From an uncultured Candidatus Saccharibacteria bacterium (GTDB taxonomy: Bacteria > Patescibacteriota > Saccharimonadia > UBA4664 > CAZJNH01), in assembly GCA_964547425.1 (NCBI GenBank), contig CAZJNH010000001.1, positions 5,295 to 69,294 of the forward strand: DNA of 64,000 bases, in the 5' to 3' direction. The notes beneath the pieces were generated by a model, which saw only the letters and a list, made by a program, of their open reading frames with translations, ran no database searches and had not been told where the DNA came from. Shown here one piece after another: positions 6,754 to 41,958 of this stretch (the first letter of the stretch is position 1; the number at the start of each line of letters is the position of its first letter). Made by a program: the position numbers and the translations under genes.

Positions 6754-6818
6754 CTTGAAGGCTCCTACAATTTATTGTATAATATTGGCTGATTCACTAT
6801 ACTTAAGTATAAGAAGTA

Positions 6819-7838
6819 ATGCCAAATTCCAGTTTCGATTATCAAAAAATCGTTGACTCACTACTAGCCAAGCTGCCAAAGGAGCGTGACCGGGACGTCC
6901 TGGCCCGTCGTTACGGGTTGGGATCTTCGGCTAGTGAAACGCTCGACAAAATCGGCCGCCGCTACGGAGTCACCCGCGAACGAGTCCGCCAAGTTGAACG
7001 GGCAGCCTTAAAACGTTTGGCTGGTGCAACCTCGGGCGAGATGAAGGCCGTCAACCAGCGTTTGGCAGCCGCACTGGCCCGAGAAGGAGGAGTAGCCGAG
7101 CTGTCTGCTTTTTCCGGAAAGCTCGGAGCCGAAACCCCCACCCAAAAATCCCAACTCTACTTTTTGGCGCGGTTGGCACCCGACATCGAGATCATCGACG
7201 AGAACAAAGAACTAGAAACGACTTTATTTGAACGCTCAGCCTTTTCGGCCGCCAAATTAACCGAATTAAGCCGCCAGCTCGCCGAGGCTTTTAAACGCCA
7301 TGGCAAGCCGGCTAGACTTACTGAGATCGCCGCCAAACTGCCCGCGCAACTCAGCCAATCTGCTCTGGGGAACTTAGCCTCCGTCAGCAAGAGCCTATCT
7401 AATTTCGGTCAGCTTTGGGGGCTAAAAACCTGGCCGGCCGTTAACCCTAAAAGCATTAAGGACCGGGCCTATTTGGCTCTGGCCCAACACTCCGAGCCGC
7501 TGCATTTTTCGGCTATCGCCATCCATATCGAAAAAATTACTCCTTCAGGCCGCAAAGTCACCACCCAAGCCGTCCACAACGAACTTATTAAGGACGAACG
7601 CTTTATCTTAATCGGCCGAGGCATTTACGCACTTTCCGATTGGGGCTACACCGCCGGCACTGTGGCTGATATGATTAAAGAAGTTCTGCGCGAGGAGCAG
7701 CCGCTCCATAAAGACGAAATTGTCAGGAGGGTACTTTTGCGGCGTCAGGTGAAGCAGGCAACCATTGCCCTGAACCTTCAGGAAAAAGACCATTTTGAGC
7801 GGGTCGCCAAAGCCACCTACCAGCTAAAGCACACATGA
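6819..7838 (+). CDS. sigma-70 region-4-like HTH protein with an uncharacterised C-terminal domain
   Basis: Residues about 20-70 match sigma-70 region 4.2 (RRYGLG...ETLDKIGRRYGVTRERVRQVERAALKRL). No regions 2 or 3 are recognisable, so the sigma similarity is limited to this segment. ATGA overlap with the downstream ATPase gene. Confidence 0.6.
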   Translation: MPNSSFDYQKIVDSLLAKLPKERDRDVLARRYGLGSSASETLDKIGRRYGVTRERVRQVERAALKRLAGATSGEMKAVNQRLAAALAREGGVAELSAFSGKLGAETPTQKSQLYFLARLAPDIEIIDENKELETTLFERSAFSAAKLTELSRQLAEAFKRHGKPARLTEIAAKLPAQLSQSALGNLASVSKSLSNFGQLWGLKTWPAVNPKSIKDRAYLALAQHSEPLHFSAIAIHIEKITPSGRKVTTQAVHNELIKDERFILIGRGIYALSDWGYTAGTVADMIKEVLREEQPLHKDEIVRRVLLRRQVKQATIALNLQEKDHFERVAKATYQLKHT

Positions 7839-10567
7839 ATATTCTAGGTTTTTTGGGCGAAATACTGCAGGTCGCTGGCCTGATACTGTTCCATTACTAC
7901 GGCTGGGTGCCTCTGGTCGGGGTGGTGGTTTATTTGACTTGGCAAAACCGGCGGCGCGTCGTGTGGCACCAAGGCATCGAGCAGTCTTTGCTATTAATTG
8001 AGGTACCGAAAGAAAATGAGAAGGACGCCCTAAGCGCCGAGCAAATGTTTGCCGCGTTGCATGGAATTTTGAGGCCCAAGTCCGATTTAACCAAGGAGGG
8101 CTCGCTCCAGGAGTACATCAGCTTTGAAATTGCCTCGATTGGCAACCGGATTCATTTCTACGTTTGGACGCCCAAGCACCTCAAAGACTTCGTCGAAGGC
8201 CAAATCTACGCCCAATACCCCAGCGTCCACATCAAAGAAGTCGAAGATGACTATGCCGGGCGGGAACACCTGAAAGGCAAGACCATCCTCGGAACCGAAC
8301 TGGCTCTAGATAAGGACCCGGTCCTGCCGATTAAAACCTACGAAAGTTTTGCCGTTGACCCGATTAGCTCGATCACCCAAGTGCTGTCAAAGCTCGATGA
8401 TGATGAAGAGATTTGGATTCAGGTTTTAGCCCGGCCGATCGAAGATGGCTGGAGCGAGGCCGGCAAAAAATTCCTCGTCGATTTGAAGGGCGGCAAAAAA
8501 GGCAAAACCCTTAAGGACGTTTTTCTTGAGTTGCCGCTTCACATAGTCTCAAACTCACTCCACGCCCTGGCCGCCCCGCCTGAAGAACCCAAAGAGGATA
8601 AGAAGGACGATAAAAAGGACGAGGATCCGACCAAAAAGTCCATCAGTGCCGCCGTTAGCGAAAAGGTGTCCAAACTGGGATACGAGGCCAAGATTAGATT
8701 GGTGTACCTTGGAACAAATAGCGAACAGGCTAGACTACGGATGCAGGCGTTAATCGGTTCATTTAAGCAATACAACACCTTAAATCTCAACGCCTTTGTG
8801 ACGACAGGGAACCGAAGCGACGAGGAACTGGTAGAGGAGTACCGCGCGCGCTTTTTCCCGCCGAAGGGTTCAATTATGAACACGGCGGAGCTGGCCAGTA
8901 TTTTCCATCTGCCGCACAAAAGCGTTGAAACCCCTAACATTGTCTGGAACACCGAACGAACTAGTGAACCGCCACCGACTTTGCCGATCGAAAACGAAGC
9001 CGACGCCGAAAACCTTAGTTTGTTTGGCCTTACCAACTTCCGCGGCCAGAGGCTTAAGTTCGGCATCAAGCGGCGCGACCGCGGGCGGCATCTTTATGTC
9101 ATCGGCCAAACTGGGACGGGTAAATCCATGCTGCTCCAGCTTTTGACTCTGTCCGATATCTACCAGGACCAAGGATTTGCCATCGTCGACCCTCACGGGG
9201 ACCTGGCCACCGACATTATGAAATATATTCCCGAGGAGAGGGTTAAAGACGTGATCTACTTCAACCCGGCCGACATCGAGTTTCCGATCGCCTTCAACCC
9301 AATGGAAGTAACCGACCCTAACTTCAAAAACAACATTTCCTCCGAAATCGTCGGCGTCTTAAAACGGATGTTCGAATCTTGGGGACCGCGGCTGGAGTAT
9401 ATTTTAAGGTTTACGATTCTGGCGCTCCTTGATTATCCGGATTCAACTTTGCTTGGCATTACCCGTATGCTAACCGACAAAGAGTTCCGCAAAAAAGTTG
9501 TCCGCGAGGTCCAAGACCCGGTGGTCAAAAACTTCTGGCTCAACGAGTTCGCTAGCTGGAACGACAAGTTCGCCAACGAGGCCGTCGCACCGGTCTTAAA
9601 CAAAGTCGGGGCCTTCACCGCCAACCCGCTGGTCAGGAACGTCATTGGCCAGCCAAAAAGCGCCATCAACCTGCGCAAGTTAATGGATGAAGGCAAGATC
9701 TTAATCGTCAACTTAAGCCAGGGACTAATAGGGGAGGACAACGCCTCCATCCTCGGCGCGCTAATGGTCACTAAGTTGCAGCTAGCCGCCATGAGCCGGG
9801 CCAATTTACCGCTCGACCAACGCCGGCCATTTTACTTGTACGTCGACGAATTCCAGAACTTCGCCACAGACTCATTTGCGGTCATTTTAAGCGAAGCCCG
9901 TAAGTATGGCTTGTATTTGACCGTTGCAAACCAATATATCGCTCAGATCGCCGAAACGGCCGTTAAAGACGCCGTGTTCGGCAACGTTGGCTCGATTGTA
10001 ACCTTCCGCGTCGGTGCCGACGACGCGACCTACCTTGCCAAGTACTTTAAACCGGTGTTTGAGGATACCGACATCGTCACCTTAAACAACCAACACATCC
10101 TGATTTCGATGAGTATCGACGGCGAGAAGTCTCCGCCATTTTCGGCTACCACCTTGATGATGCCTGAACCGGTCGAGGATATGAGCGCTAGCATTATCGC
10201 TCGCTCACGCCAGGACTACGCTAGCAGTAAGGCAGAGGTTACGGACGCGATCAGCAACTGGTCGTACGACATGCACCAAAAGACCAGAGGAGCAATGGAT
10301 GAGGAAGCGGCACCGGGCGAAGACGCGCCGGTTCGTATGGGTGAACAAAAAGCGAACACACCGAGTGAGCTCAAAAATCCGGAGCCTAGACCTGTCCAAC
10401 AGGAGAAAAAGCCTGAGCACAACAGAGATCATGATCGAGACAGGGATCGTCGTGATCGGCCAAAACACCACCAGCCGGAACCGAGAAAAGAGCAGCCAGC
10501 GGTAAATACACACAATCAGCCGGGCGAGTTGCACCAAGACGAAGTAGTGAAGCTGCACCAAGAATAG
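7835..10567 (+). CDS. membrane-anchored VirD4/TraG-family (type IV coupling-protein-like) ATPase
   Basis: 910 aa. N-terminal TM hairpin, Walker A (GQTGTGKS), DPHGD, Walker B (FYLYVDEFQNF), TraG/VirD4-like C-terminal region, and a charged low-complexity tail (DRDRDRRDRPKHH). No other T4SS genes are nearby. Confidence 0.7.
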   Translation: MNILGFLGEILQVAGLILFHYYGWVPLVGVVVYLTWQNRRRVVWHQGIEQSLLLIEVPKENEKDALSAEQMFAALHGILRPKSDLTKEGSLQEYISFEIASIGNRIHFYVWTPKHLKDFVEGQIYAQYPSVHIKEVEDDYAGREHLKGKTILGTELALDKDPVLPIKTYESFAVDPISSITQVLSKLDDDEEIWIQVLARPIEDGWSEAGKKFLVDLKGGKKGKTLKDVFLELPLHIVSNSLHALAAPPEEPKEDKKDDKKDEDPTKKSISAAVSEKVSKLGYEAKIRLVYLGTNSEQARLRMQALIGSFKQYNTLNLNAFVTTGNRSDEELVEEYRARFFPPKGSIMNTAELASIFHLPHKSVETPNIVWNTERTSEPPPTLPIENEADAENLSLFGLTNFRGQRLKFGIKRRDRGRHLYVIGQTGTGKSMLLQLLTLSDIYQDQGFAIVDPHGDLATDIMKYIPEERVKDVIYFNPADIEFPIAFNPMEVTDPNFKNNISSEIVGVLKRMFESWGPRLEYILRFTILALLDYPDSTLLGITRMLTDKEFRKKVVREVQDPVVKNFWLNEFASWNDKFANEAVAPVLNKVGAFTANPLVRNVIGQPKSAINLRKLMDEGKILIVNLSQGLIGEDNASILGALMVTKLQLAAMSRANLPLDQRRPFYLYVDEFQNFATDSFAVILSEARKYGLYLTVANQYIAQIAETAVKDAVFGNVGSIVTFRVGADDATYLAKYFKPVFEDTDIVTLNNQHILISMSIDGEKSPPFSATTLMMPEPVEDMSASIIARSRQDYASSKAEVTDAISNWSYDMHQKTRGAMDEEAAPGEDAPVRMGEQKANTPSELKNPEPRPVQQEKKPEHNRDHDRDRDRRDRPKHHQPEPRKEQPAVNTHNQPGELHQDEVVKLHQE

Positions 10568-10938: not shown

Positions 10939-11787
10939 TCACTTATAGTAGGCTTTGCCTTCGACGCGTAGATCCACATACTCCTTTGGCCGCCGACCGC
11001 TCTTGGCCAGGCTGCTCAAAACCAATTGTAGCGCGTGGATCTGGCTCCCCGCCCCCCTAGTGGTATCGAACTTAACCAAAAACCCGCGCGCTAGGTTCAC
11101 ATTCAGCTCGCTTGTAGTGTCACGCACGCTCATATCCTTAACCTTCTCCCCTAACCCAGCTAGTCCGGCCGCGGTATCGAGCGTAAAGGCGACAAATCGG
11201 CTGGGCACCACTCTTTCCCCTGCCTTGACCGGCAGGTTTGTCGTATCTGTTACCACCGCCAGCTTCCCTTGCTTGTCGGTGATTTGGCGAATCACCGTTC
11301 CGTCCCTGTCCAACAGATACAATACTCCCCCGCTCCGCCAGGCCAGTGACGGTTCACGCTCGGAGACAGTAATGATCAGCCGGGTTGGCCACCCTCGTTT
11401 GAATGACAAGTGCTTGATTTCCGGAATCTCCCCTATCACCGACTGTTCCAGCCGGCCGGGGCTAAAGGTAATCAGGTTGTCCCCCAAAAGCTGCGACCGC
11501 AGTCCCTTGCGCACCGACAGTTCGATGAGTTTCGGGCTTATAGTCTGGGCGCCCTGGATCTGGACTTCGCCAATCAAAAAGTACCGCCACAGAAAAAATA
11601 GCGCTGCCGCTCCTAAAACATATTTAACCCACCACAAACGCGAACGGCCAGGCCGCCGGCGCGGGGTGGGAGTGGATGATGGCGCGGGACGCGGGCGGTT
11701 AAAACCTCTCCCGGAAGGAAGGTTCGGCCGGCCAACGTTTCTGACTTGGCGATCAGGCATCGCTTCCTGTTTCTTCTGGCTCATCAA
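10939..11787 (-). CDS. ftsQ: cell division protein FtsQ/DivIB
   Basis: Basic, Pro-rich N-terminus, one TM, then POTRA-like and FtsQ-type domains, as expected for FtsQ/DivIB. Last gene of the dcw cluster. The start may be the internal Met at 11760, which would shorten the overlap with murG. Confidence 0.75.
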   Translation of the reverse strand: MMSQKKQEAMPDRQVRNVGRPNLPSGRGFNRPRPAPSSTPTPRRRPGRSRLWWVKYVLGAAALFFLWRYFLIGEVQIQGAQTISPKLIELSVRKGLRSQLLGDNLITFSPGRLEQSVIGEIPEIKHLSFKRGWPTRLIITVSEREPSLAWRSGGVLYLLDRDGTVIRQITDKQGKLAVVTDTTNLPVKAGERVVPSRFVAFTLDTAAGLAGLGEKVKDMSVRDTTSELNVNLARGFLVKFDTTRGAGSQIHALQLVLSSLAKSGRRPKEYVDLRVEGKAYYK

Positions 11788-12925
11788 CCCGTGCCGCGGC
11801 CAAAATTACCTTGGCCAATCTTTCATCGGCATCCGGCACCGCGAACTCCCCAATCTGTTTTGACAGATAAGATCGCTCCGCTTCACTCTCAAGCAAATGA
11901 TCAACTTCCCTAATCAGCGTCTGGGTCGTTAGCCTGTCTTCGGTTATTACCCGAACCGCGCCTGCCCTGCCCATAATCTGGGCATTGACGGTTTGATGTC
12001 CCCCGGTCAGGTGCGGATTTGGAATCAGGATCGTCGGTTTTTTGAGCTGCGCCAGTTCAGCCAGAGTATTCGCCCCTGCACGAGAGATTACAATGTCGGC
12101 CGCTTCCAGCGCCGCGCCAATCTCGTCATGCAAAAACGCCACCGGGCGGTACTGTGTAACCAGCTGCGGTTCCAGTTTACGGGTTTCAAACTTTACCCTC
12201 TCGATATCCTTCTCACCGGTGACATGGATCAGCTGGACCTTTTGTAATAATTCAGGCAGAGCGGATAGCACCGCTTCGTTGACCCGCTGGGCCCCGCTAG
12301 AGCCTCCAAGTACCAGGACTACTGGCTTTTTCTCGTCGAAGTTAAAGTGTTTTAGCCCGGCCAGGCGATGGGATTTAGTGATTAGGCCGCGGACCGGGTT
12401 GCCGACGTAGACTAACTTGTCGGATGGCTCGCCCCGGTACTTATCAACCGGAAACCCGGTGGCGAGTTTCGCCGCCCAGCGCGACAGGATTCGGTTCGTC
12501 AGACCAGGCACTGCGTCAGAGTCATGGATCACCAGCGGGTATCTCATTAGTCCGGCGGCTATCCCTACCGGCAACCCGACATAACCCCCTTTTACGAACA
12601 CTACGTTCGGATCGTAGGCTTTAATAATTTTGCGGCTTTGCCAAACACCGGCAGCAACCCGGAATAGGTCGGTGAAGTTTCGGCCTATACTTGACAAATT
12701 AGCTATTCTATGTTGTAGCTTTAACTTATGAAAACGGCGGTACTTGCCCGCCGCGATCGGCTTAAACTCCAGGCCAGCTCCCCGCGCCAGCTTGGCCTCA
12801 ACTCCTCCGCCGGTCCCGACGTACAAAATCTCGGCGGACTTATCGAGCCGTTTTAGGGCGTCGGCCGTAGCCAGAATCGGCGAAATGTGACCACCGGTCC
12901 CCCCGCCGCTGACGAGAATTCGCAT
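11753..12925 (-). CDS. murG: undecaprenyldiphospho-muramoylpentapeptide beta-N-acetylglucosaminyltransferase MurG
   Basis: Canonical N-terminus MRILVSGGGTGGHISP, GT28 family, 390 aa. Confidence 0.9.
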   Translation of the reverse strand: MRILVSGGGTGGHISPILATADALKRLDKSAEILYVGTGGGVEAKLARGAGLEFKPIAAGKYRRFHKLKLQHRIANLSSIGRNFTDLFRVAAGVWQSRKIIKAYDPNVVFVKGGYVGLPVGIAAGLMRYPLVIHDSDAVPGLTNRILSRWAAKLATGFPVDKYRGEPSDKLVYVGNPVRGLITKSHRLAGLKHFNFDEKKPVVLVLGGSSGAQRVNEAVLSALPELLQKVQLIHVTGEKDIERVKFETRKLEPQLVTQYRPVAFLHDEIGAALEAADIVISRAGANTLAELAQLKKPTILIPNPHLTGGHQTVNAQIMGRAGAVRVITEDRLTTQTLIREVDHLLESEAERSYLSKQIGEFAVPDADERLAKVILAAARVDEPEETGSDA

Positions 12926-23003: not shown

Positions 23004-25340
23004 TCAGTTCAGCAAGGTTAATTGCTTGGCGATCGGCAGTGAAAAGCTAAACTTTGACCCCGCCGACTCTCGGCTGGTCACCCAAATCCGCCCGCCGTGC
23101 GCCTCCACCAAATTCTTCACAATATAGAGTCCCAGCCCTGTCCCCCCAGCCTGCACCGTCATTGGGTTAAACACCCGGCCAAACTTCTGGAACAATTTGC
23201 CAATCTGGCTAGGGGTAATCCCCACTCCTTTGTCGGTGATGCTGGTGATCAGTTCGTCCCCGTGGATTTTGAAATCAATCGTCACCTCGCTTTTTGGCAT
23301 CGAGTATTTAATACCGTTATCAACTAAATTAGTCAGGATCTGCCGCAGCCGGCTTTCGTCGGCCAAGACTAACGGCAAGCGGTAGCGCCGGTTAACTTTG
23401 AGGGTAATGTCGCGTTCGAAGCCTTTGCCGGCCAGTTCGGTAACAACATCGCGGATAATGTTCTCCATCGCCAGCGGCCGTAGATCCAGATTAATTTTGC
23501 CGCCTTCGATGTGGCTGATGTCTAAAAGGTCTTCAACAAGATCGATCATCCGTTGGTTGCTTTGGTAAACCCGCGACAGGTAGTGGAACTGTTTGTCGGT
23601 TAAATCCCCAAAGTCTTTTTTCAGCAACATACTCATAAAACCTTTGATCGCCGAGAGCGGCGTGCGCAGCTCGTGCGAGACGATCGAGATGAAATCGCTT
23701 TTGATCTCTTCAATCTCCCGGTCGCGCTGGATGTTACGAATAACGGCGATGCCGGAGGTAACGTTGCCGTCGTGGTCGAGCATCGGCGAGTAGCTTATCT
23801 GGGCCCAGAACCGGTTGCCGGCTTTGCCTTCGATCAGCTGCTCGGTTTTAGGGATGGTTTTGCCGCCTGAGAGCACCTGTTTAATCGGTGATCGACCCGA
23901 CAGATCTATCCCCTCCGGTGAGACGGTCCGGATAATTTTAGTAAACGGCTGGCCGATAGCTTCGGTCACGGAGTATTGAGTCAATCCGGCGCAGGTGGCG
24001 TTAAAGCCGACGATCCGGCCTTCGTGGTCGTAGATGACAATTCCGTCCTCGGTAAATTTAAACACCGCCTCCCAGCGTTCCCGCCTGGCGTTAACCTCCT
24101 GGTAAAGGTTGGCGTTTTCGATCAAGATGCCTTTGCGCATCGCCGCGATCTTGAGGAAGTTAAGGTCGCTTTTGGTGTAAGGTTTATCCTGACGCGTAGC
24201 CAAGATACAACCCATAACTTTAGAGTGGATGGTAATCGGAACGCTAATCGAGTAATGAGCAAAAACCGACTTCGGTTCGCCCTCCCCTAGATTGTTGATC
24301 TCGGCCTTGCGCGTCAAAAATACCCGCCCCACTAAATCTTTTTTTGTCGGTGATACCTCGTCCGGATGTTCATTAAAGTTAGTGCTGGTCGCCATTCGGG
24401 CGAGTTTCTTCTGCCTCGGTGAATAAAGGTAAATGCTGGTATAGGGTGATTCGAGTAATGTAGATAAGTGAGTGGTGAATTTTTTGTAAAGCTGTTCCGG
24501 CCGCAAGCTGAAAATAGCCGACAGGTCGGTCAGCTCATTTAATTTACGCGCATTTTTTTGCTCCTCCATCGCCAGCGCGTTGGCCTCAACGGTCTTTTCA
24601 ACTAAGGCAGTGATGTCTCGGCCGGTGGCGATCATACCGGTCACTTTACCCTCAACCTTGAGCGGTCCGCAGGAAAACTGAATGTGCCGGTTGGTTTTAG
24701 TGGCAAAGCAGTAGACCAGAATTTTCTTGCCTTGCATCACCTGCTTAAAAACATCGGCCGGATCCCGGTCGAACTCCAGAGGCGGCTGGGCTTTTAAGAC
24801 CTCCGCCATCTTTAGTCCGACGATCGGCTGGTCGATACCAAAAAGTTCCAGCCACTCCCGGTTGTGGTCTAGCACCGTATCGGTCCGGTCGATCACTACA
24901 AATCCATCATTAAAGTTTGAGATCACCGCAGCCAGCCGCTCCTTTACCCATGACAGTGCGGTGACATCGCGTACCAGCATCAAATACCCGGCCATTTCAC
25001 CGTCCTCGATGCATGCCTGGCGAATTATCTCAACCGCCCGGTTTTGGAGATGGGCAATGTAGCTTGAGTCGCCCTGCCGCACCAAACCTTTTCGGATAAT
25101 TTCGGGTTTTTCTTTGGCCGATTCCGCCAGCAGCGTAATTAAATCCTGGCCGCTCAACTCCTCTCCGAGTAACGACCGGGCAGTTGTGTTGGCATAAGCC
25201 ACCTTGTAGTCCAGTGAGGTCACCATCATCCCGTGGTGCATCAGTTCTGCAGCTGGACGAATTTTGGCGCAAACCGATTCCAGCAGGGTAGCTGATTTGC
25301 CCGCGGTCGGCTGTTTGGTCTTAAGATCTTTAGTCGGCAC
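23004..25340 (-). CDS. cytoplasmic multi-domain sensor histidine kinase (PAS/GAF-HisKA-HATPase)
   Basis: 778 aa with no TM segment. H-box (SHELRTPLSAIKGF), N-box (DNGIKYS), G2 box (GGTGLGLYIV), preceded by about 500 aa of PAS/GAF-like repeats. Confidence 0.85.
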   Translation of the reverse strand: MPTKDLKTKQPTAGKSATLLESVCAKIRPAAELMHHGMMVTSLDYKVAYANTTARSLLGEELSGQDLITLLAESAKEKPEIIRKGLVRQGDSSYIAHLQNRAVEIIRQACIEDGEMAGYLMLVRDVTALSWVKERLAAVISNFNDGFVVIDRTDTVLDHNREWLELFGIDQPIVGLKMAEVLKAQPPLEFDRDPADVFKQVMQGKKILVYCFATKTNRHIQFSCGPLKVEGKVTGMIATGRDITALVEKTVEANALAMEEQKNARKLNELTDLSAIFSLRPEQLYKKFTTHLSTLLESPYTSIYLYSPRQKKLARMATSTNFNEHPDEVSPTKKDLVGRVFLTRKAEINNLGEGEPKSVFAHYSISVPITIHSKVMGCILATRQDKPYTKSDLNFLKIAAMRKGILIENANLYQEVNARRERWEAVFKFTEDGIVIYDHEGRIVGFNATCAGLTQYSVTEAIGQPFTKIIRTVSPEGIDLSGRSPIKQVLSGGKTIPKTEQLIEGKAGNRFWAQISYSPMLDHDGNVTSGIAVIRNIQRDREIEEIKSDFISIVSHELRTPLSAIKGFMSMLLKKDFGDLTDKQFHYLSRVYQSNQRMIDLVEDLLDISHIEGGKINLDLRPLAMENIIRDVVTELAGKGFERDITLKVNRRYRLPLVLADESRLRQILTNLVDNGIKYSMPKSEVTIDFKIHGDELITSITDKGVGITPSQIGKLFQKFGRVFNPMTVQAGGTGLGLYIVKNLVEAHGGRIWVTSRESAGSKFSFSLPIAKQLTLLN

Positions 25341-38024: not shown

Positions 38025-39176
38025 TTATCGCTTTAAAGCCTTAAGTAAGTCGCGCTTAGAGCGGATCCAGGCCCGGGCAGAATATCCCAGAGCGCTGAAA
38101 CCGACTAGGCCGCCAGCCGCGCCTTCGGCACCGGTCTGCGGCAATGGGCCGCTAGGCAGGTGGCCGCCGCCAACGTTACAGTTGACTTTGCAAACCGGGG
38201 GCTTGTGGTTACAGTTGAACGTACAAACCGGAGGTTTACAGTTGTTCTGCTCTTGGCAGGTAGGCGGTTTACAGGTGTTAGTCTGCTCACAGGGCGGGGT
38301 TTGAGTGACGATCTTTACGATCGCAACGTCACACCCGTGCTGGTTCCCGTTAGCAGTGAAACACGCTTGGTTAGTAATGAACCCGGCAGTACTTTGGGTA
38401 ACTTTGACGGTGATGTCAAAGAACTTCAGTTTACCGGCCGCAATGTCTCCAAAGTTGGATTGAATGTGGCGGGTGGACGGGTTGCTAACTAACTCAACTC
38501 CAGCGGGCAGATCGTCGGTCATAACCACGTTCTGCATTACTGAAGTACCATTGTTGGTAATGGTGACATCGTATTTTAGGGTGTCACCGGTGTTGACCTC
38601 AACGGCGTGGGCCTGATCGTCGGCGGCGTGGTTGGTGTTAGGGTCGGTAGTCTCATCAATCACACGCTTAAAGATCTGGCCGAACGGGGCGGAAATCTGT
38701 TTTACGGGGTTGCCGCAAGATTTGATGATCGCCCAGTGGAAGGTACCACCAGAAACGTTAACGAACGCCGGCAACGAGTTGCTGACGAACGACACTGAAG
38801 TCGGGCGCATCCACAGGCTGCCGTCATGGACGGAACCTTGCAGGAATTCGCGGCCTGAGCTCCAGACGTTGGTGGCTACAACGTGACCATTTACGATCAC
38901 TTGACCGCTTTTGGTAACCGAGCCATCAACCGTTGAGCTGGACAAAATGCCAGCCTCGGTGATGCCGCGGCCTTCGTTGTAATAGATTTGTTTTAGGTTG
39001 GCGGAGCTGTTTACTCCGTCACCTTGGTTAATACGTTTAACTAAAGTCGCTTTGTCGCCCGCACCACCGTTCATCACGGCGTTGGAGCTAAAGTCAGCGG
39101 CCAAAACATGTTTGGCGCCAACAGCAATTCCGGTCACTAGCGCTAAGGCTAGTAAAATTTTCTTGATCTTGAACAT
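38025..39176 (-). CDS. LPXTG-anchored surface protein with Cys-rich CxPPxC repeats
   Basis: Signal peptide. C-terminal LPQTG followed by a hydrophobic stretch and a basic tail (sortase sorting signal). Four CKPP(T/V)C-type repeats. Strong SD (AAAGGAGG). Confidence 0.7.
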   Translation of the reverse strand: MFKIKKILLALALVTGIAVGAKHVLAADFSSNAVMNGGAGDKATLVKRINQGDGVNSSANLKQIYYNEGRGITEAGILSSSTVDGSVTKSGQVIVNGHVVATNVWSSGREFLQGSVHDGSLWMRPTSVSFVSNSLPAFVNVSGGTFHWAIIKSCGNPVKQISAPFGQIFKRVIDETTDPNTNHAADDQAHAVEVNTGDTLKYDVTITNNGTSVMQNVVMTDDLPAGVELVSNPSTRHIQSNFGDIAAGKLKFFDITVKVTQSTAGFITNQACFTANGNQHGCDVAIVKIVTQTPPCEQTNTCKPPTCQEQNNCKPPVCTFNCNHKPPVCKVNCNVGGGHLPSGPLPQTGAEGAAGGLVGFSALGYSARAWIRSKRDLLKALKR

Positions 39177-39314
39177 TAATGTTCCTCCTTTGAGGAAAAG
39201 TTTGTTAATTAATAGAAAGCTAGAAGCTAATCGCTAAAAGCTTTGTAAGGCTTTAAATGATGACAATGTCAAAGGGCCTCTGCCCTGCAGCCGAATAGTC
39301 AAAGATCTTCAAGA

Positions 39315-39366
39315 AGTTCAAAAAAGTGAAACTCCCGGGAGGAGGAGTAAGTATCCTCCTCCCGGG
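39315..39366 (-). terminator. intrinsic terminator of the GC-rich island operon
   Basis: Perfect 13-bp GC stem (CCCGGGAGGAGGA/TCCTCCTCCCGGG), followed on the minus strand by AGUUUCACUUUUUU. Confidence 0.45.
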
Positions 39367-39389
39367 TTACAGCTGATGCTGCGTTCGCT

Positions 39390-40322
39390 CTACGCGCTTC
39401 CGGCACTTGTGCCGTTGCCCGTAGAGCATGTGCCGTCCCCATTTGCGTGGGCATTGGGGTCGGAACAGTTACCGCCGCCCTGGTTCTGGTCCGGCTGTTT
39501 GCCGTTGCTGACCTTCCCAGGACCGTTGGTGTCACCCGTTGACGTCGGGTTGTTCGTCGGCTTGGTGTTGGTTGGCGTTGTTGTGCCACCGCCACCGGAC
39601 GGAGTCACCACGGTTGTTCCGGGGCTAACCGGAGTTACCGGTGCTGACGGGACCGTCGTCGACGTCTGCGGAGCCGTATTCCCCTGCGGCGACGAGGCTC
39701 TGTGGGGAGCCACGTTGCTGTCAGGCGTCGGTGCTTTGTTGGTCGACGGCGCGGCCTTGCCTTGCGGCTTGGCCGGTGCCGACACCTTCGGCGCCGGTTT
39801 GGCAACCGGCTCCGTACTGGTGCTGCGACCCGTGACCGTGGCAGCCGCGAGGGCCAGTACGATCAGCACCCACCAAGGCTTTCGGCGCTTGCGGGACCTG
39901 GCGGTCTCGAGCGTCGTGGTCTTGGTGCCCTGCGGCAGAGTCAGAACCTGAGTCTGCATTGCGGTCGTGTCGCCACGAGCCGTCCTGCGAATCAGGTCTG
40001 TGGCCACCGCCGTGACGATCGCCTTCTCTTCGACCGTCAGCCGTGGCTGGGGAGCCAGGTTGACCGTGCGAACCGCGAGGTTCGCGTCGGCCGTCGGCTC
40101 GACGATCGTGATCTTCGGCACCGGCCGGGTCGCGGTCTGCGCCTGCTGCGGAGCGACTCCCAACATCTGGGACAGCTCCTCGTTCAAACGCGAATCGCCC
40201 GGGCGGTCACCGAAGTGGTGAAGCCGCCTGATCTCCTCGCGCTCGAGCTCCTTCTCCGCCGCCTCCCGCTCGATGCGGACTCGGAGAGGATCCTTGTGCA
40301 GCGTTGAGCTTGCCATTGTCAC
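39390..40322 (-). CDS. island protein: N-in single-pass membrane protein with a Pro/Thr-rich disordered ectodomain and a C-terminal Cys motif
   Basis: 310 aa. Cytoplasmic charged N-terminus, TM (WWVLIVLALAAATV), low-complexity P/T/S-rich tail ending GNCSDPNAHANGDGTCSTGNGTSAGS. Strong SD (GGGGAGGTG). Higher GC than the flanks. Confidence 0.5.
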   Translation of the reverse strand: MTMASSTLHKDPLRVRIEREAAEKELEREEIRRLHHFGDRPGDSRLNEELSQMLGVAPQQAQTATRPVPKITIVEPTADANLAVRTVNLAPQPRLTVEEKAIVTAVATDLIRRTARGDTTAMQTQVLTLPQGTKTTTLETARSRKRRKPWWVLIVLALAAATVTGRSTSTEPVAKPAPKVSAPAKPQGKAAPSTNKAPTPDSNVAPHRASSPQGNTAPQTSTTVPSAPVTPVSPGTTVVTPSGGGGTTTPTNTKPTNNPTSTGDTNGPGKVSNGKQPDQNQGGGNCSDPNAHANGDGTCSTGNGTSAGSA

Positions 40323-40327
40323 CTCCC

Positions 40328-40927
40328 CTACTTTGATCCGGCGCTTTCGCCGCCGGTAACGCAGTTGCCGTCACCATCCGGATGGGTGGTATCGGCCGGA
40401 CAGGTCTCGCCGTGCTGGGCATCGGTTACCCGCTGCCCTTGGCTCTGGCTCGACGATGACGATGCTGAACTTGAATCGCCGCTCAGTGCCGGGAGGTTGG
40501 CTAATGCGCCGCCCGACCCGGAACTGCTGTTGCTACTCGAACTCGAACCGTTGGTTGCGGCCGAATTCGAGTTTGAAGCGTCAGACGAGGTACTGGAACT
40601 GCTTCCCGGAGCCGCCGTCGCCGATGGTTTCGGCGTGTAAATCGGCATCTGGGATGAATCGGTGGCCTTGGACGCGGGATCGAACACCGTGTGCGTCTTC
40701 GATCCCAGGAGGAAAAACACCCCGGCGATCGCGACGAACAAGAAAGCCACCCACGCCCAACCCTTGCGGTTTGCGGGCAGGAAGCGCTTCTCGTGCTGCT
40801 CACGCATGTCGATGTTCTGCGTCTGGTCCGGCGGCGTCTGGGGCACGGCGGGGATGTGTTGCGTCTCCGCGTGTGCCTGGTCATACGCTGCAGCCCACTC
40901 GTTCCGCTCTTCGGTACCGAGTGCCAC
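40328..40927 (-). CDS. island protein: paralogous single-pass membrane protein with a Ser-rich ectodomain and the same C-terminal Cys motif
   Basis: 199 aa. GTG start with a GAGGAGG SD. TM (WAWVAFLFVAIAGVFFLL). Ser-rich tail ending GETCPADTTHPDGDGNCVTGGESAGS. Confidence 0.5.
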   Translation of the reverse strand: MALGTEERNEWAAAYDQAHAETQHIPAVPQTPPDQTQNIDMREQHEKRFLPANRKGWAWVAFLFVAIAGVFFLLGSKTHTVFDPASKATDSSQMPIYTPKPSATAAPGSSSSTSSDASNSNSAATNGSSSSSNSSSGSGGALANLPALSGDSSSASSSSSQSQGQRVTDAQHGETCPADTTHPDGDGNCVTGGESAGSK

Positions 40928-41958
40928 TATGCCTTCACCTCCTCGTACGTGTGTGCGACGGCCTCAAGGATCTGATCTCTGTCGTAGCTGTCGTGGGCTT
41001 TGGTGAGTTCTTTCATCAGCTCACCTCTGTCTCCACCACCTCTTACGGCAGCGACCATCACGTTGACGGCCTTGAGGAAATCCTTATCCAGCCGCCAGGC
41101 GTCCTTGTCCTTTTTCTTGCGCCGTTTCGGCTTGTCGGGTTTGGAACCGTTGCTCGACGGCTTGGACTTGGAGTTGTCCTCCGGCAGCTTAGGTCGCTGC
41201 TGGAGCACGTCATCGCGGAGCTGTTCGATGTGATGAACGAACTCGCTGCGCGCGTTGTCGATCAACTCCTTGACCCGGTCGCCATGGCGGCGATCCCGGC
41301 GGTCAAGTTCGTCTTGGAGGCTCTTACCGAAATCGGTAAGCAGTTCCTCCACAACGGTTCGGATCGCGGCGATCGAGACAGACTCGTCGCCGGCCCGATT
41401 TGCGTCCGGCTTACTGCCCTGCTCGACCACTACGTTCCCCTTTCGGTTGGATTCTGGCCTGATCCGCAGCCCCTCGGACTCTCTCAGAGAGTCTGCCAGC
41501 GTGCTCGGGAGGAGCTCTCCCGACATCAATTGTTTCGCTACAGCGGTCTCCGGCTTGTTGGCCGGATCCTCTTGACGGCGAAACTCGGCATACTCTCTGA
41601 GGTACGGGACAAACTGCAATGCTTCGCGGAGGGCGTTGACGGTCTGGTTGCGCGAAGCACGTTTCGCGTTCTCATCGAGATCGCGATAGTACTCCAGCAA
41701 CCGTTCGAGCGTCTTCACTGCCGCCTTTGAGGGCTTTCCTGAAAACTTCACGTTCTCCGGCAACATCTCCCCGAGCAGGAGCTTGACCGCTAGTGAAGCG
41801 GCCTTCTCCTCTTCGAGATTAAAACCCGGCAGTTGCTCGACTAGCTCCAGCATATTGCCGAGGCAGTCGAGCTTTGCTTCTTCATCCAAGTTACCGGCGG
41901 CATCCTCTTTCTGGTAGGCCGCGGCGCCTTCTCGGATGACTTTTTTCACATCCTCCAT
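40927..41958 (-). CDS. island protein: charged cytoplasmic hypothetical protein
   Basis: 343 aa, no TM, highly charged. Strong SD (GAGGAGGTG). First gene of the three-gene island operon. Confidence 0.5.
   Translation of the reverse strand: MEDVKKVIREGAAAYQKEDAAGNLDEEAKLDCLGNMLELVEQLPGFNLEEEKAASLAVKLLLGEMLPENVKFSGKPSKAAVKTLERLLEYYRDLDENAKRASRNQTVNALREALQFVPYLREYAEFRRQEDPANKPETAVAKQLMSGELLPSTLADSLRESEGLRIRPESNRKGNVVVEQGSKPDANRAGDESVSIAAIRTVVEELLTDFGKSLQDELDRRDRRHGDRVKELIDNARSEFVHHIEQLRDDVLQQRPKLPEDNSKSKPSSNGSKPDKPKRRKKKDKDAWRLDKDFLKAVNVMVAAVRGGGDRGELMKELTKAHDSYDRDQILEAVAHTYEEVKA

What the first reader, a model, noticed from the sequence alone, without database searches (positions are those of the whole stretch)
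6819..10567. Translationally coupled pair: sigma-70 region-4-only protein and a membrane-anchored VirD4/TraG-like ATPase without any other T4SS genes
The 339-aa protein carries only a sigma region 4.2 HTH followed by about 250 aa of unknown sequence. Its stop overlaps (ATGA) the start of a 910-aa protein. That protein has an N-terminal TM hairpin, an uncharacterised domain of about 350 aa, a coupling-protein-type P-loop ATPase (GQTGTGKS, DPHGD, YLYVDEFQNF) and a charged DRDRDR-rich tail. No relaxase, VirB4, pilin or other conjugation genes are present. This looks like a stand-alone DNA-translocase-like module on the chromosome, with a DNA-binding adaptor. Together with dprA 5 kb upstream, a role in DNA uptake or export rather than classical conjugation is a reasonable hypothesis. 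The pairing itself may be a lineage-specific conserved module.
Basis: partly seen in the sequence, partly recalled or inferred. Interest (0 to 1): 0.55.

Follow-up and report, generated by a model that had tools for sequence, protein, structure and literature searches.

The report
Core Patescibacteria secretion-type ATPase operon
This two-gene operon, conserved across the ultra-small Patescibacteria, pairs a sigma-factor-fragment protein (essential in a cultured relative) with a membrane-anchored motor ATPase that joins a VirB4-like front half to a VirD4-type coupling-protein engine; what it does is still unknown.

Summary
ORF A (6819-7838, 339 aa) and ORF B (7835-10567, 910 aa) overlap by ATGA and sit among housekeeping genes (dprA, lepB, topA, PBP1a | ftsQ-murG-ftsW-mraY-ftsI). 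No type IV secretion (T4SS) gene was found in the 50 window ORFs scanned.

The pair is not lineage-specific. A lies directly upstream of B in 57 of 77 informative genome loci. A DUF8128 gene lies directly downstream of A in 12 of 14 informative metagenome loci. In Parcubacteria, B is split into a DUF8128 membrane protein and a soluble ATPase.

New here:
- The "unknown 350-aa domain" of B (Pfam DUF8128) has the fold of the VirB4 N-terminal domain.
- The ATPase half of B is closest to coupling proteins (TrwB, DotL), not to FtsK or HerA.
- A is sigma region 4, with an intact -35 recognition helix, plus two HARE-HTH winged helices of the RNA-polymerase-delta type.

Published Tn-seq in Southlakia scores the A ortholog essential. 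It scores the B ortholog dispensable, though mutant reads fall about 4-fold. So A is more than an adaptor for B.

B corresponds to the "orphan T4CP" already reported in 96% of Patescibacteria genomes. I found no published description of the pairing or of the VirB4-like domain. The link to dprA and DNA uptake is not supported.

The parts
6755..6783 (+). Sigma-70-type promoter-like site, TTGAAG-17 nt-TATAAT, ending 36 nt before A's ATG.
   Evidence: 10 of 12 consensus positions. This is a consensus match only: 4 sites were found in the region against 2.8 expected.
6819..7838 (+). Gene A, 339 aa: sigma region 4, a linker or helical region, then two HARE-HTH winged helices. It is the ortholog of Southlakia SEML1_0294.
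6864..7019 (+). Sigma-70 region 4 (residues 16-67), including the recognition helix GVTRERVRQVE.
   Evidence: Pfam PF04545, E 1e-11. Alignments to RpoD/RpoS region 4 are. R53, E54, R55, R57 and Q58 are invariant in 21 diverse homologs.
7452..7646 (+). First HARE-HTH winged helix (residues 212-276), of the RNA-polymerase-delta type.
   Evidence: TIGR04567 hit at 212-276, E 9.6e-6, below its cut-off. Pfam HARE-HTH reports 2 stretches. DPAM places a winged-helix domain at 216-285 in the Southlakia ortholog.
7656..7826 (+). Second HARE-HTH winged helix (residues 280-336).
   Evidence: PF05066 best stretch 280-336, 29.6 bits against a cut-off of 25.9.
7835..7838 (+). ATGA overlap of A's stop codon and B's start codon.
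   Evidence: Across 67 pairs the estimated gap has a median of 35 nt, and 56 of 67 are 101 nt or less. Tight operonic adjacency is conserved; the exact overlap is not.
7835..10567 (+). Gene B, 910 aa: membrane anchor, DUF8128 (VirB4-NTD-like), T4CP-type ATPase, then a disordered charged tail. It is the ortholog of Southlakia SEML1_0293.
7835..7975 (+). N-terminal hydrophobic anchor (residues 1-47), modelled as two helices (3-20 and 24-47) and followed by QNRRR.
   Evidence: Hydropathy; AF2 models. Whether it is a hairpin or a kinked single TM helix was not determined. Either topology leaves the rest of the protein in the cytoplasm (inference from the positive-inside rule).
7976..8992 (+). DUF8128 (PF26449), residues 48-386, with a VirB4 N-terminal-domain-like fold. 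It ends at ...EPPPTLPIE, which is exactly where the gene is split in Parcubacteria.
   Evidence: PF26449 is precomputed for the 100%-identical P0001 and for L081. AF2 model pLDDT is 88.4. The top 13 Foldseek hits are all TrwK/VirB4.
9020..10264 (+). ATPase module (residues 396-810): an FtsK/HerA-superfamily nucleotide-binding domain of the coupling-protein type.
   Evidence: Pfam and NCBIfam. Profile against PDB. Foldseek: TrwB TM-score 0.65-0.67 (target-normalised), rmsd 4.3 A. It is 54-58% identical to Parcubacteria ATPase-only proteins.
9104..9127 (+). Walker A motif, GQTGTGKS (residues 424-431).
   Evidence: Conserved in all homologs and paralogs examined.
9317..9646 (+). All-alpha insertion (residues ~495-604) between Walker A and Walker B, in the position of a T4CP all-alpha domain.
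   Evidence: Secondary structure of the full-length model. The TrwB_AAD_bind alignment spans it. It is highly conserved.
9833..9862 (+). Walker B motif, YLYVDEFQNF (residues 667-676).
10295..10564 (+). Disordered, charged C-terminal tail (residues ~821-910), including HNRDHDRDRDRRDR.
   Evidence: pLDDT is below 50 from residue ~830. The tail varies in the family; Parcubacteria carry a treble-clef zinc ribbon there.

Best explanation
What it is (high confidence, about 0.85):
- This is a vertically inherited core operon of Patescibacteria.
- Gene B encodes a membrane-anchored ATPase of the T4SS branch of the FtsK/HerA superfamily, with an unusual composite build: an N-terminal anchor (in the position VirB3 has relative to VirB4), a VirB4-N-terminal-domain-like module (DUF8128), a VirD4/TrwB-type nucleotide-binding domain with an all-alpha insertion, and a variable tail.
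- It matches the 'orphan T4CP' counted in 96% of Patescibacteria genomes, and its Southlakia ortholog SEML1_0293 is the t4cp homologue that paper cites.
- Gene A encodes a protein that is not a sigma factor. It has sigma region 4 with the complete -35-recognition helix, followed by delta-subunit-type HARE-HTH winged helices.

How it most likely works (inferred, about 0.35):
- A and the DUF8128 part of B form a complex at the cytoplasmic membrane.
- A supplies binding to double-stranded DNA (-35-like sites) and/or to RNA polymerase.
- The hexameric ATPase supplies ATP-driven translocation or remodelling of that nucleoprotein substrate.
- Where the chromosomal Patescibacteria T4SS is present, B docks to it through the VirB4-like domain and acts as its coupling ATPase. 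This role is helpful but not required in co-culture, as VirD4 is dispensable for pilus formation in Agrobacterium (general knowledge).
- A must also have a second, essential role. Either it acts as a general RNA-polymerase-associated factor, or it restrains B.
For: Shown by tool results:
1. Architecture. PF26449/DUF8128 is assigned to the identical protein. The AF2 models are confident (pLDDT 88.4 and 85.3).
2. DUF8128 fold. The N-terminal model's top 13 Foldseek hits are all R388 TrwK/VirB4 (E 6e-6 to 3e-4, probability 1.0). The next hits have probability below 0.4.
3. Whole protein. The full-length model aligns to VirB4 over ~900 columns (E 1.8e-16). Its ATPase half superposes best on TrwB (TM-score 0.66, rmsd 4.3 A), ahead of DotL, Cag-beta and HerA.
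4. Autonomy of the two halves. In Parcubacteria-type loci, DUF8128 with its anchor and the soluble ATPase are separate adjacent genes, split at the domain border. This mirrors the TrsD/TrsE split of VirB4 described in PMC12102498.
5. Linkage of A. A is directly upstream on the same strand in 57 of 83 loci, which is 57 of 77 informative loci. DUF8128 is directly downstream of A in 12 of 14 informative metagenome loci. The wider context changes (topA/dcw, secDF/mnmA, leuS/mltG), but the A-DUF8128 adjacency stays.
6. Core status. More than 7,415 B homologs and 4,161 DUF8128 clusters at 50% identity were found. The ATPase is 54-58% identical across classes. All contexts examined are housekeeping.
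7. Catalytic motifs are invariant.
8. A's sigma-4 helix TRERVRQ(I/V)E matches the recognition helix (TRER[IV]RQI) of RpoD and RpoS chains, and R53, E54, R55, R57 and Q58 are invariant in the family.

From papers:
- T4CP homologs occur in 2,918 of 3,035 genomes, only 148 of them near virB4; VirB4 occurs in 2,417 genomes (PMC12102498).
- In Southlakia, SEML1_0294 (A) is essential at all three time points. SEML1_0293 (B) is scored non-essential, with normalised reads of 5817, 2940 and 1372.
- Both are flagged as core and Patescibacteria-enriched families (PMC10633639 Table S1).
Against: - No direct evidence exists that A and B interact. No A-B fusion protein was seen. The one apparent fusion was an N-run artefact.
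- A is essential while B is not, so their functions are at least partly separable.
- About a quarter of informative loci have B without an adjacent A. Two loci have A-DUF8128 with no ATPase nearby.
- The ATPase family is present in more genomes than VirB4 (96% against 80%) and is almost never near it. This fits a T4SS-independent role at least as well.
- The VirB4-like fold rests on predicted models and on Foldseek local scores. Global TM-scores are only 0.27-0.41.
- hhalign against pSK41 TrsD found nothing.
- The substrate (DNA, protein or RNA) is not known.
Confidence: 0.4

Rival explanations
1. Two functionally independent genes share an old operon. A is an essential, Patescibacteria-specific RNA-polymerase accessory or transcription factor, a sigma-4 plus delta-like protein. 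B is simply the T4SS coupling ATPase, or some other motor. There is no A-B complex.
For: - A is essential and B is not.
- A's domains are both RNA-polymerase-binding modules in known proteins: sigma-4 binds the beta flap, and the HARE-HTH of delta binds RNAP (general knowledge; hits).
- B occurs without an adjacent A in 20 of 77 informative loci.
- A occurs without B in code-25 lineages.
Against: Adjacency on the same strand persists across class-level divergence while the flanking genes change completely. From general knowledge, that pattern is typical of physically interacting products. The gaps are short (median 35 nt). The link is to the DUF8128 gene specifically, even where the ATPase gene is absent.
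Confidence: 0.25
2. A is a brake on B. It represses the operon or inhibits the ATPase, and unrestrained B is toxic. That would explain why A is essential and B dispensable, in an antitoxin-like genetic relationship.
For: - The genetic pattern is the one expected: A essential, B non-essential.
- A lies upstream and is tightly coupled to B.
- A has a DNA-binding helix able to read -35-like sequences, and a promoter-like site sits just upstream.
Against: - B mutants lose fitness rather than being neutral.
- Both proteins are universal core families under strong purifying selection, unlike toxin-antitoxin pairs.
- A persists in lineages and loci where B is not adjacent.
Confidence: 0.12
3. One reading: a stand-alone DNA uptake or export translocase working with dprA and the competence machinery, with A as its DNA-binding adaptor.
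For: - The ATPase belongs to a DNA-pumping superfamily.
- dprA-topA-A-B order is conserved in Saccharimonadia.
- Patescibacteria are naturally competent (PMC10633639).
Against: - The dprA linkage disappears outside Saccharimonadia.
- Deleting comEC abolishes transformation but not viability. Yet A is essential and B mutants decline, so the module's importance does not run through transformation.
- No competence gene apart from dprA is linked to it.
Confidence: 0.08
4. An FtsK/SpoIIIE-like role in chromosome segregation or cell division, suggested by the position next to the dcw cluster and PBP1a.
For: - In Saccharimonadia the pair lies next to ftsQ-murG-ftsW-mraY-ftsI and PBP1a.
- Other contexts also include envelope genes such as secDF, mltG and LytR_C.
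Against: - Pfam FtsK_SpoIIIE scores only 13.1 bits against a cut-off of 24.
- No FtsK chain appears in the PDB profile search.
- Southlakia has a canonical, essential FtsK with a gamma domain (SEML1_0096).
- The dcw neighbourhood is specific to Saccharimonadia.
Confidence: 0.07
5. An anti-phage defence module or a remnant of a mobile element. The best PADLOC hit for B is mad8 (MADS), and A's sigma-4 hits MzaA.
For: PADLOC gives mad8 at 9.8e-17 and several HerA models for B, and MzaA at 1.5e-8 for A. NCBIfam gives MzaA at 2.9e-14.
Against: - The hits cover only the generic ATPase core and sigma region 4.
- No other MADS or MZA gene is nearby.
- Housekeeping context, near-universal presence, 55% identity across classes and a roughly taxon-congruent tree are the opposite of what defence islands or mobile elements show.
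- No integrase or relaxase is present.
Confidence: 0.03

Closest known systems
VirD4/TrwB/TraD/DotL type IV coupling proteins (T4CP)
   Same: - N-terminal membrane anchor.
- Walker A/B nucleotide-binding domain with an all-alpha insertion.
- Best sequence matches in Pfam, NCBIfam and PDB.
- Best structural superposition of the ATPase half: TrwB TM-score 0.66, rmsd 4.3 A, 16-17% identity.
- The family is already counted as 'T4CP homologous to VirD4' in Patescibacteria (PMC12102498).
   Different: - A ~340-aa VirB4-NTD-like domain lies between the anchor and the ATPase. From general knowledge, canonical T4CPs have none.
- The protein can be split into two genes.
- It is encoded in housekeeping context, not with a relaxase or T4SS.
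- It is vertically inherited and far more conserved than plasmid T4CPs.
- All NCBIfam T4CP models score far below their cut-offs (48.9 against 366; 45 against 250).
- It is non-essential where the T4SS is essential.
VirB4/TrwK/TraC ATPases, with VirB3 and with the split TrsD/TrsE form of pGO1/pSK41
   Same: - The order of parts is the same: membrane helices (VirB3 position), N-terminal domain, C-terminal ATPase.
- DUF8128 matches only VirB4 chains with confidence.
- The full-length model aligns collinearly with VirB4 (E 1.8e-16).
- The same fused/split polymorphism exists: TrsD is described as homologous to the VirB4 N-terminus (PMC12102498).
   Different: - Sequence signatures of VirB4 are absent. 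AAA_10 scores 14 bits against a cut-off of 27.5, TIGR00929 scores 15.6 against 643, and no CagE_TrbE_VirB hit appears.
- hhalign of DUF8128 against pSK41 TrsD is negative.
- Global TM-score is low (0.27-0.41).
- Patescibacteria have a separate, genuine VirB4 in their T4SS cluster (for example SEML1_0008).
Sigma-70 region 4 and the RNA-polymerase delta subunit (RpoE of Firmicutes)
   Same: - A's residues 16-67 align to region 4.1-4.2 of RpoD, RpoS and SigA, with the same TRER[IV]RQ recognition-helix residues.
- A's C-terminal winged helices are HARE-HTH, the fold of delta's N-terminal domain (DPAM hit e7f75L1).
   Different: - A has no sigma regions 1.2, 2 or 3, so it cannot open promoters. It is not a sigma factor, despite 'RpoS' annotations.
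- A has no acidic C-terminal tail like delta's, and it has two or three winged helices instead of one.
- The TIGR04567 score is below its cut-off (25.7 against 42).
- A canonical RpoD exists in the related Southlakia genome.
T4CP plus DNA-binding accessory pairs, such as TraD-TraM and TrwB-TrwA (general knowledge)
   Same: A small multi-HTH DNA-binding protein is encoded with a coupling-type ATPase. This offers a plausible logic of substrate recruitment.
   Different: - The accessory proteins of plasmids are ribbon-helix-helix or tetramerisation proteins, not sigma-4/HARE proteins.
- Plasmid systems need a relaxase and oriT, and none is found here.
- A is essential for growth, unlike the accessory factors of plasmids.
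FtsK/SpoIIIE and HerA
   Same: They belong to the same ATPase superfamily. The DUF87 (HerA central) Pfam model is above its cut-off. HerA is a significant structural hit (E 8.7e-13, TM-score 0.51).
   Different: - B has no FtsK alpha or gamma domains and no HAS barrel.
- FtsK_SpoIIIE scores below its cut-off.
- No NurA partner is present.
- A canonical FtsK is present in Southlakia.

Membership tests
VirD4-type coupling protein (T4CP) | N-terminal transmembrane anchor | tested here: met
   Residues 1-35 are hydrophobic. They are modelled as helices 3-20 and 24-47.
VirD4-type coupling protein (T4CP) | FtsK/HerA-superfamily nucleotide-binding domain matching T4CP profiles, with Walker A and B | tested here: met
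   PF10412 scores 30.1 (cut-off 20.5) and PF12696 scores 23.6 (cut-off 22). TrwB and DotL are the only significant PDB sequence hits. The catalytic motifs are invariant.
VirD4-type coupling protein (T4CP) | All-alpha domain inserted in the nucleotide-binding domain | tested here: met
   Helices ~495-604 lie between Walker A and Walker B in the model. Superposition on TrwB gives TM-score 0.66. This rests on a predicted structure.
VirD4-type coupling protein (T4CP) | Membership of a curated T4CP family (NCBIfam cut-offs) | tested here: not met
   TIGR03743 scores 48.9 against 366. NF045973 scores 45 against 250. TIGR03754 scores 33 against 648. TIGR02759 scores 14.7 against 521.
VirD4-type coupling protein (T4CP) | Encoded with a T4SS and/or a relaxase | tested here: not met
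   No T4SS or relaxase gene was found in the 50 window ORFs scanned. None was found in the flanks that were annotated (L081-L083) or Pfam-scanned (L072, L074, L090-L094, L100). In the literature, only 148 of 5,713 homologs are near virB4.
VirD4-type coupling protein (T4CP) | Recruits substrates to a T4SS channel | not testable with these tools
   This needs genetics or biochemistry. Published Tn-seq shows that the ortholog is dispensable while the T4SS is essential.
VirB4/TraC/TrbE ATPase | Two-domain build: a specific N-terminal domain followed by a C-terminal ATPase | tested here: met
   The N-terminal model hits only VirB4 chains with confidence. The full-length model aligns collinearly over ~900 columns at E 1.8e-16. 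This is similarity between a predicted fold and solved structures, with low global TM-scores.
VirB4/TraC/TrbE ATPase | VirB4 sequence signatures (CagE_TrbE_VirB, AAA_10, TIGR00929) | tested here: not met
   AAA_10 scores 14 against 27.5. TIGR00929 scores 15.6 against 643. NF045971 scores 15.2 against 325. hhalign against pSK41 TrsE matched the Walker A region only, and TrsD gave no match.
VirB4/TraC/TrbE ATPase | Neighbouring VirB3, VirB6 and VirB8 genes | tested here: not met
   None was found in the window ORFs scanned or in the related loci that were annotated or Pfam-scanned.
Pfam DUF8128 (PF26449) | Match to the family model | tested here: met
   Precomputed PF26449 hits exist for P0001 (100% identical to B) and for all listed homologs. 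The name is given. The model is missing from the local Pfam copy, so it could not be rerun.
FtsK/SpoIIIE | FtsK_SpoIIIE motor domain and gamma winged helix | tested here: not met
   PF01580 scores 13.1 against 24. No gamma domain is found, and no FtsK chain appears in the PDB profile search.
HerA | HAS-barrel N-domain, HerA ATPase and a NurA partner | tested here: not met
   Only the generic DUF87 core matches (28.4 against 23.2). HerA_C scores 11.7 against 22. The N-domain is VirB4-like, not a HAS barrel. No NurA gene is nearby.
Sigma-70 family sigma factor (for A) | Regions 2 and 4 both present (region 2 is needed for core binding and -10 melting) | tested here: not met
   Only Sigma70_r4 is found. 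No r2, r3 or r1.2 appears at E up to 1. All sigma NCBIfam hits cover only the last ~60 model positions and score far below their cut-offs.
RNA-polymerase delta subunit (for A) | Single N-terminal HARE-HTH plus an acidic C-terminal tail; match to TIGR04567 | tested here: not met
   TIGR04567 scores 25.7 against 42. The HARE-HTH domains are C-terminal and duplicated, and there is no acidic tail.
HARE-HTH domain (PF05066) (for A) | Match above the gathering score | tested here: met
   29.6 bits against 25.9, in 2 stretches.
MADS / MZA defence systems | Full gene set of the system in one locus | tested here: not met
   Only partial domain hits were found, to mad8 and MzaA. The neighbours are housekeeping genes.

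The most novel reading that the evidence does not exclude
B may be a surviving 'missing link' between the two T4SS ATPases: a protein that keeps a VirB3/VirB4-type front end on a VirD4-type engine. On this reading it was domesticated early in Patescibacteria as a universal cellular machine that works independently of the T4SS. Its obligate partner would be an essential sigma-4/delta-like protein that ties RNA polymerase or promoter DNA to the membrane motor. One possible use is to couple the state of the cell-surface apparatus to transcription, in the way flagellar FlgM export does. Another is to move host-derived or own nucleic acid across the membrane.
Probability: 0.15. Interest if true: 0.8.

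Novelty: new variant of a known kind. Interest (0 to 1): 0.55.

Why it matters
Patescibacteria make up a large share of bacterial diversity, and most of their lineage-specific core genes have no known function. This operon contains two of them.

- **A** is essential in the only Patescibacteria Tn-seq data set I found.
- **B** belongs to an ATPase family reported in 96% of genomes. That family is currently filed as an unexplained "orphan coupling protein".

Three results turn a loose annotation into testable hypotheses:
1. DUF8128 is VirB4-like.
2. The ATPase can be split at that domain border.
3. The sigma-4/HARE protein is its conserved operon partner.

The hypotheses are an A-DUF8128 complex, suppression of A's essentiality by deleting B, and docking of B to the T4SS. 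They can be tested in a system where genetics now exists (Southlakia, Nanosynbacter).

The result also bears on how VirB4 and VirD4 diverged.

Tried and rejected
- **Apparent A-B fusion in L007 (1,341 aa).** It is an artefact of a run of N in the contig.
- **Stop-codon recoding at the split sites.** The in-frame stops between DUF8128 and the ATPase in five loci are real TAA/TAG stops followed by an ATG, so these are genuine gene splits.
- **hhalign against pSK41 proteins.** DUF8128 against TrsD gave no similarity (E 0.23). The ATPase profile against TrsK (T4CP) gave E 1.2e-4 over the Walker B region, and against TrsE (VirB4) E 1.2e-5 over Walker A only. This does not discriminate.
- **R388.** Its record was not in the plasmid collection.
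- **TTGACA as a possible A-binding or loading site.** There were 20 matches against 24 expected. The strand bias follows gene orientation and is not informative.
- **RNA genes.** No Rfam family and no tRNA was found in the window, so no RNA element is associated with the operon. The only tandem repeat (8597-8622) is the KEDKKDDK low-complexity loop of DUF8128.
- **Exact look-ups.** The look-up of P0001's contig failed. Cluster look-ups gave no organism names.
- **Literature.** No paper mentions DUF8128. The HARE-HTH founding paper is not held. The T4SS paper never mentions a sigma-like partner.
- **Defence-system reading.** Rejected, because only the generic domains match and the context is housekeeping.
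- **FtsK-substitute reading.** Rejected, because a canonical essential FtsK exists in the related Southlakia genome.

Full report
**1. Observation**

ORF A (6819-7838, 339 aa) and ORF B (7835-10567, 910 aa) are present as described. The stop codon of A and the start codon of B share ATGA. All motifs quoted for B are in place: GQTGTGKS at 424-431, DPHGD at 452-456, YLYVDEFQNF at 667-676 and the DRDRDR tail at 867-872. The first ~35 residues are hydrophobic and are followed by QNRRR. A promoter-like TTGAAG-17-TATAAT lies 36 nt upstream of A, but this is only a consensus match.

The neighbours are:
- dprA, lepB, topA and a class A PBP upstream;
- downstream and convergent, ftsQ-murG-ftsW-mraY-ftsI, followed by rsmH and mraZ.

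I scanned 50 window ORFs besides A and B. They include every listed ORF of 150 aa or more after 17 kb, except four that overlap scanned ORFs. Most are housekeeping genes and none is a T4SS or relaxase gene. Seven gave no Pfam hit, and short pilins were not excluded. The closest named relatives are Candidatus Saccharimonadia/Saccharimonadales. The window is therefore, by inference, a chromosomal stretch of a Saccharibacteria-type Patescibacterium.

**2. Protein A**

Pfam finds only sigma region 4 (residues 16-67, E 1e-11) and HARE-HTH (two stretches, best at 280-336, above the cut-off). NCBIfam sigma models match only with their last ~60 positions. The RNA-polymerase-delta model TIGR04567 matches 212-276, below its cut-off.

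Residue-level alignments to solved RpoD, RpoS and SigA chains show the region 4.2 helix TRERVRQVE aligned to their TRER[IV]RQI. In an alignment of 21 diverse homologs, R53, E54, R55, R57 and Q58 are invariant. From general knowledge of sigma-DNA complexes, these are the residues that read the -35 hexamer. DNA recognition of -35-like sequences, and/or beta-flap binding, is therefore plausible but untested.

A is not a sigma factor, because it has no region 2 or 3. The last ~130 aa are two winged helices of the type found in the delta subunit. The published structure-based annotation of the Southlakia ortholog divides it into a sigma-like tri-helical domain plus three winged helices (PMC10633639 Table S2).

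**3. Protein B**

The sequence hits are those of coupling proteins:
- TrwB_AAD_bind, TraG-D_C and DUF87 are above their Pfam cut-offs.
- NCBIfam T4CP models reach 1e-8 to 1e-13, while VirB4 models reach only about 4e-3. All are far below their family cut-offs.
- TrwB and DotL are the only significant PDB sequence matches, both with the single protein and with a profile of eight diverse ATPase domains. That profile gives TrwB 5.7e-8, DotL 1.2e-6, HerA 0.1 or worse and no FtsK chain.

The N-terminal ~350 aa are Pfam DUF8128 (PF26449), according to the precomputed annotation of the identical database protein. No paper mentions this family.

I modelled residues 1-395 with a 61-sequence alignment that included 28-32%-identical Parcubacteria proteins (pLDDT 88.4, pTM 0.81). 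Foldseek against PDB returned thirteen significant hits, all of them TrwK/VirB4 chains of the R388 T4SS (E 6e-6 to 3e-4, probability 1.0). Everything below had probability under 0.4.

The full-length model (pLDDT 85.3) gave these results:
- It aligns with VirB4 over ~900 columns (E 1.8e-16).
- Its ATPase half superposes best on TrwB (TM-score 0.65-0.67, rmsd 4.3 A).
- Next come DotL (0.55), Cag-beta (0.52) and HerA (0.51).

An all-alpha block (~495-604) lies between Walker A and Walker B, where T4CPs carry their all-alpha domain. The tail from ~825 is disordered.

B is therefore a composite of four parts: an anchor in the position VirB3 has relative to VirB4, a VirB4-NTD-like domain, a VirD4-type engine and a variable tail. 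One caveat applies. Global TM-scores to VirB4 are low (0.27-0.41), and hhalign found no sequence similarity between DUF8128 and pSK41 TrsD.

**4. Distribution and synteny**

B has more than 7,415 database homologs and matched more than 583 stretches in the species-representative genome collection. The 80 loci kept are mostly labelled Saccharibacteria. Some are labelled Peregrinibacteria, Peribacteria, Buchananbacteria, Daviesbacteria or Nomurabacteria. A DUF8128 profile finds 4,161 clusters at 50% identity.

Linkage between A and B:
- A homolog of A lies directly upstream on the same strand in 57 of 83 loci. That is 57 of the 77 loci that have enough upstream sequence.
- The estimated gap has a median of 35 nt.
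- Starting from A instead, 17 full-length homologs were found in metagenome contigs. Of these, 12 of 14 informative ones have DUF8128 directly downstream. The two exceptions come from lineages that read TGA as glycine.

Variation in the form of B:
- In Parcubacteria-type genomes, B is two genes: a 410-690-aa DUF8128 membrane protein and a soluble ATPase of 500-668 aa. The break is exactly at ...EPPxxLP(I/T)x | M..ITxFGxTNFR.
- In five of five such loci the two genes are in the same reading frame and are separated by real stop codons.
- Two loci have A-DUF8128 followed by mltG, with no ATPase nearby.

The wider context changes (topA/PBP1a/dcw in Saccharimonadia, secDF...mnmA/alaS in Parcubacteria, leuS...mltG elsewhere), while the A-DUF8128 adjacency persists. 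The second refutation test (no synteny) is therefore also not met, and the module is phylum-wide rather than lineage-specific.

A rough NJ tree puts the A-linked genes in the main Saccharimonadia and Parcubacteria clades. The A-less genes fall in one Saccharimonadia sublineage, in a few deep branches and in an extra paralog B'. All of them, B' included, keep the catalytic motifs. The ATPase half is 54-58% identical between classes. Within a locus it is about as conserved as MraY or TopA.

**5. What is already known**

Quinonero-Coronel et al. 2025 (PMC12102498) report three relevant numbers for 3,035 Patescibacteria genomes:
- 5,713 VirD4-type T4CP homologs in 2,918 genomes;
- only 148 of these near virB4;
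- VirB4 in 2,417 genomes.

[quoted passage not shown] They mention neither a sigma-like partner nor a VirB4-like N-domain.

Wang et al. 2023 (PMC10633639) say that the Southlakia T4SS lacks a recognisable coupling protein. Their tables nevertheless list SEML1_0293 (2,766 bp, TrwB_AAD_bind at 402-719) next to SEML1_0294 (1,050 bp, Sigma70_r4 plus HARE-HTH, annotated 'RpoS'), in the order dprA...topA...A-B. The Tn-seq data for these genes are:
- Both are flagged as core and Patescibacteria-enriched.
- A is essential at all three time points.
- B is called non-essential, but its normalised reads fall from 5817 to 2940 to 1372, while the neighbouring genes stay flat.

The same genome has a canonical essential FtsK and RpoD. 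The main text does not discuss either gene.

**6. Interpretation**

Shown:
- the composite architecture;
- the split/fused polymorphism;
- the phylum-wide A-DUF8128-ATPase operon;
- intact catalytic and DNA-reading motifs;
- housekeeping context;
- the genetic asymmetry, from published data.

Inferred:
- A and DUF8128 form a membrane complex, because gene order conserved at this depth usually reflects physical interaction.
- A brings DNA or RNA polymerase to the complex.
- B is a hexameric translocation motor that can dock to the T4SS through its VirB4-like domain.

The Tn-seq pattern (T4SS and pilins essential, T4CP-like gene only beneficial) resembles the known dispensability of VirD4 for pilus biogenesis (general knowledge). 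However, the ATPase family is more widespread than VirB4 and is almost never near it. A T4SS-independent core role is therefore about as likely.

A's essentiality requires either an independent function, such as acting as an RNA-polymerase-associated factor, or a role in restraining B. A double-mutant experiment would separate these two.

The dprA/DNA-uptake idea is weak for three reasons. The linkage is lineage-specific, dprA-topA adjacency is common in bacteria, and loss of comEC is neutral for growth. The defence and FtsK readings are rejected.

**7. Verdict**

The gene family is known and partly discussed in the literature, so this is not categorically new.

I found no published description of three things:
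- the VirB4-like identity of DUF8128;
- the composite VirB4/VirD4 build and its split variants;
- the conserved pairing with a sigma-4/HARE protein whose Southlakia ortholog is essential.

I rate it a new variant of a known kind, of moderate to good interest. It is directly testable in the Saccharibacteria genetic systems that now exist.

Noticed in passing
window 38025-41958 (minus strand): A DUF11 surface-type protein (38025-39176) is followed by three ORFs with no Pfam hit (39390-40322, 40328-40927, 40927-41958). They lie in the only high-GC stretch of the window (40-42 kb, GC 0.61). Long antisense ORFs there (39376-39951, 40456-41730) look like GC-driven shadows. This may be a cell-surface gene cluster.
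   Followed up: partly
L069, L070, L076, L078, L079 (junctions given): Where B is split, the DUF8128 gene and the ATPase gene are in the same reading frame in 5 of 5 loci. They are separated only by one or two real stop codons and 3-24 nt. This suggests fission or fusion by gain or loss of a stop codon. The loci may not be independent events.
   Followed up: partly
L063:1670-4216, L066:858-3404, L075:1782-4154, L061:1232-3679, L067:1128-3587: A second, divergent paralog of B lies just upstream, as B'-A-B or as a B'-B tandem. It is 33-36% identical to the window's B. Its Walker A, Walker B and sensor motifs are intact. The one paralog scanned (L063) gave no Pfam hit at 1e-4.
   Followed up: partly
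L097:4501-5517, L098:2169-3185: These homologs of A have in-frame TGA at conserved glycine positions, which points to lineages using genetic code 25 (Gracilibacteria/Absconditabacteria-like). tblastn (E 1e-5) found no B in the downstream sequence held (about 4.5 kb in L097, about 2 kb in L098).
   Followed up: partly
L082:9466-11151, L090:5424-7277, and others in alignment A2: Parcubacteria ATPase-only proteins end in a treble-clef zinc ribbon, CxxC...FxPDGKRPxFCKxC (PF23477). The window protein has a DRDRDR-rich disordered tail instead. The tails may be alternative substrate-binding or nucleic-acid-binding modules.
   Followed up: no
L092:5550-7860, L093:5008-7296: In these loci the order is leuS - A - DUF8128 - mltG (YceG), with no ATPase gene within the locus. 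The link between A and DUF8128 seems tighter than the link to the ATPase.
   Followed up: partly
window 1-64000: No tRNA gene (ARAGORN) and no Rfam family at gathering threshold was found in 64 kb.
   Followed up: yes
window 47576-49042 (minus strand): The lysyl-tRNA synthetase is of the class I (archaeal-type, tRNA-synt_1f) kind.
   Followed up: no
window 23004-25340 (minus strand): A 778-aa multi-PAS/GAF histidine kinase is present in what is presumably a reduced genome.
   Followed up: no
window 10955-11863 (+), compared with 10939-11787 (-): A 302-aa ORF with no Pfam hit lies antisense to ftsQ and is almost certainly a shadow ORF. The listed murG/ftsW and ftsW/mraY ORFs overlap by 70-86 nt, probably because the first-start rule over-extends them.
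   Followed up: partly
L045, L057, L069 (record titles): Loci carrying this Patescibacteria module are labelled Bulleidia sp., Chlamydiae bacterium and Gammaproteobacteria. This is probably mis-binning of metagenome-assembled genomes.
   Followed up: no
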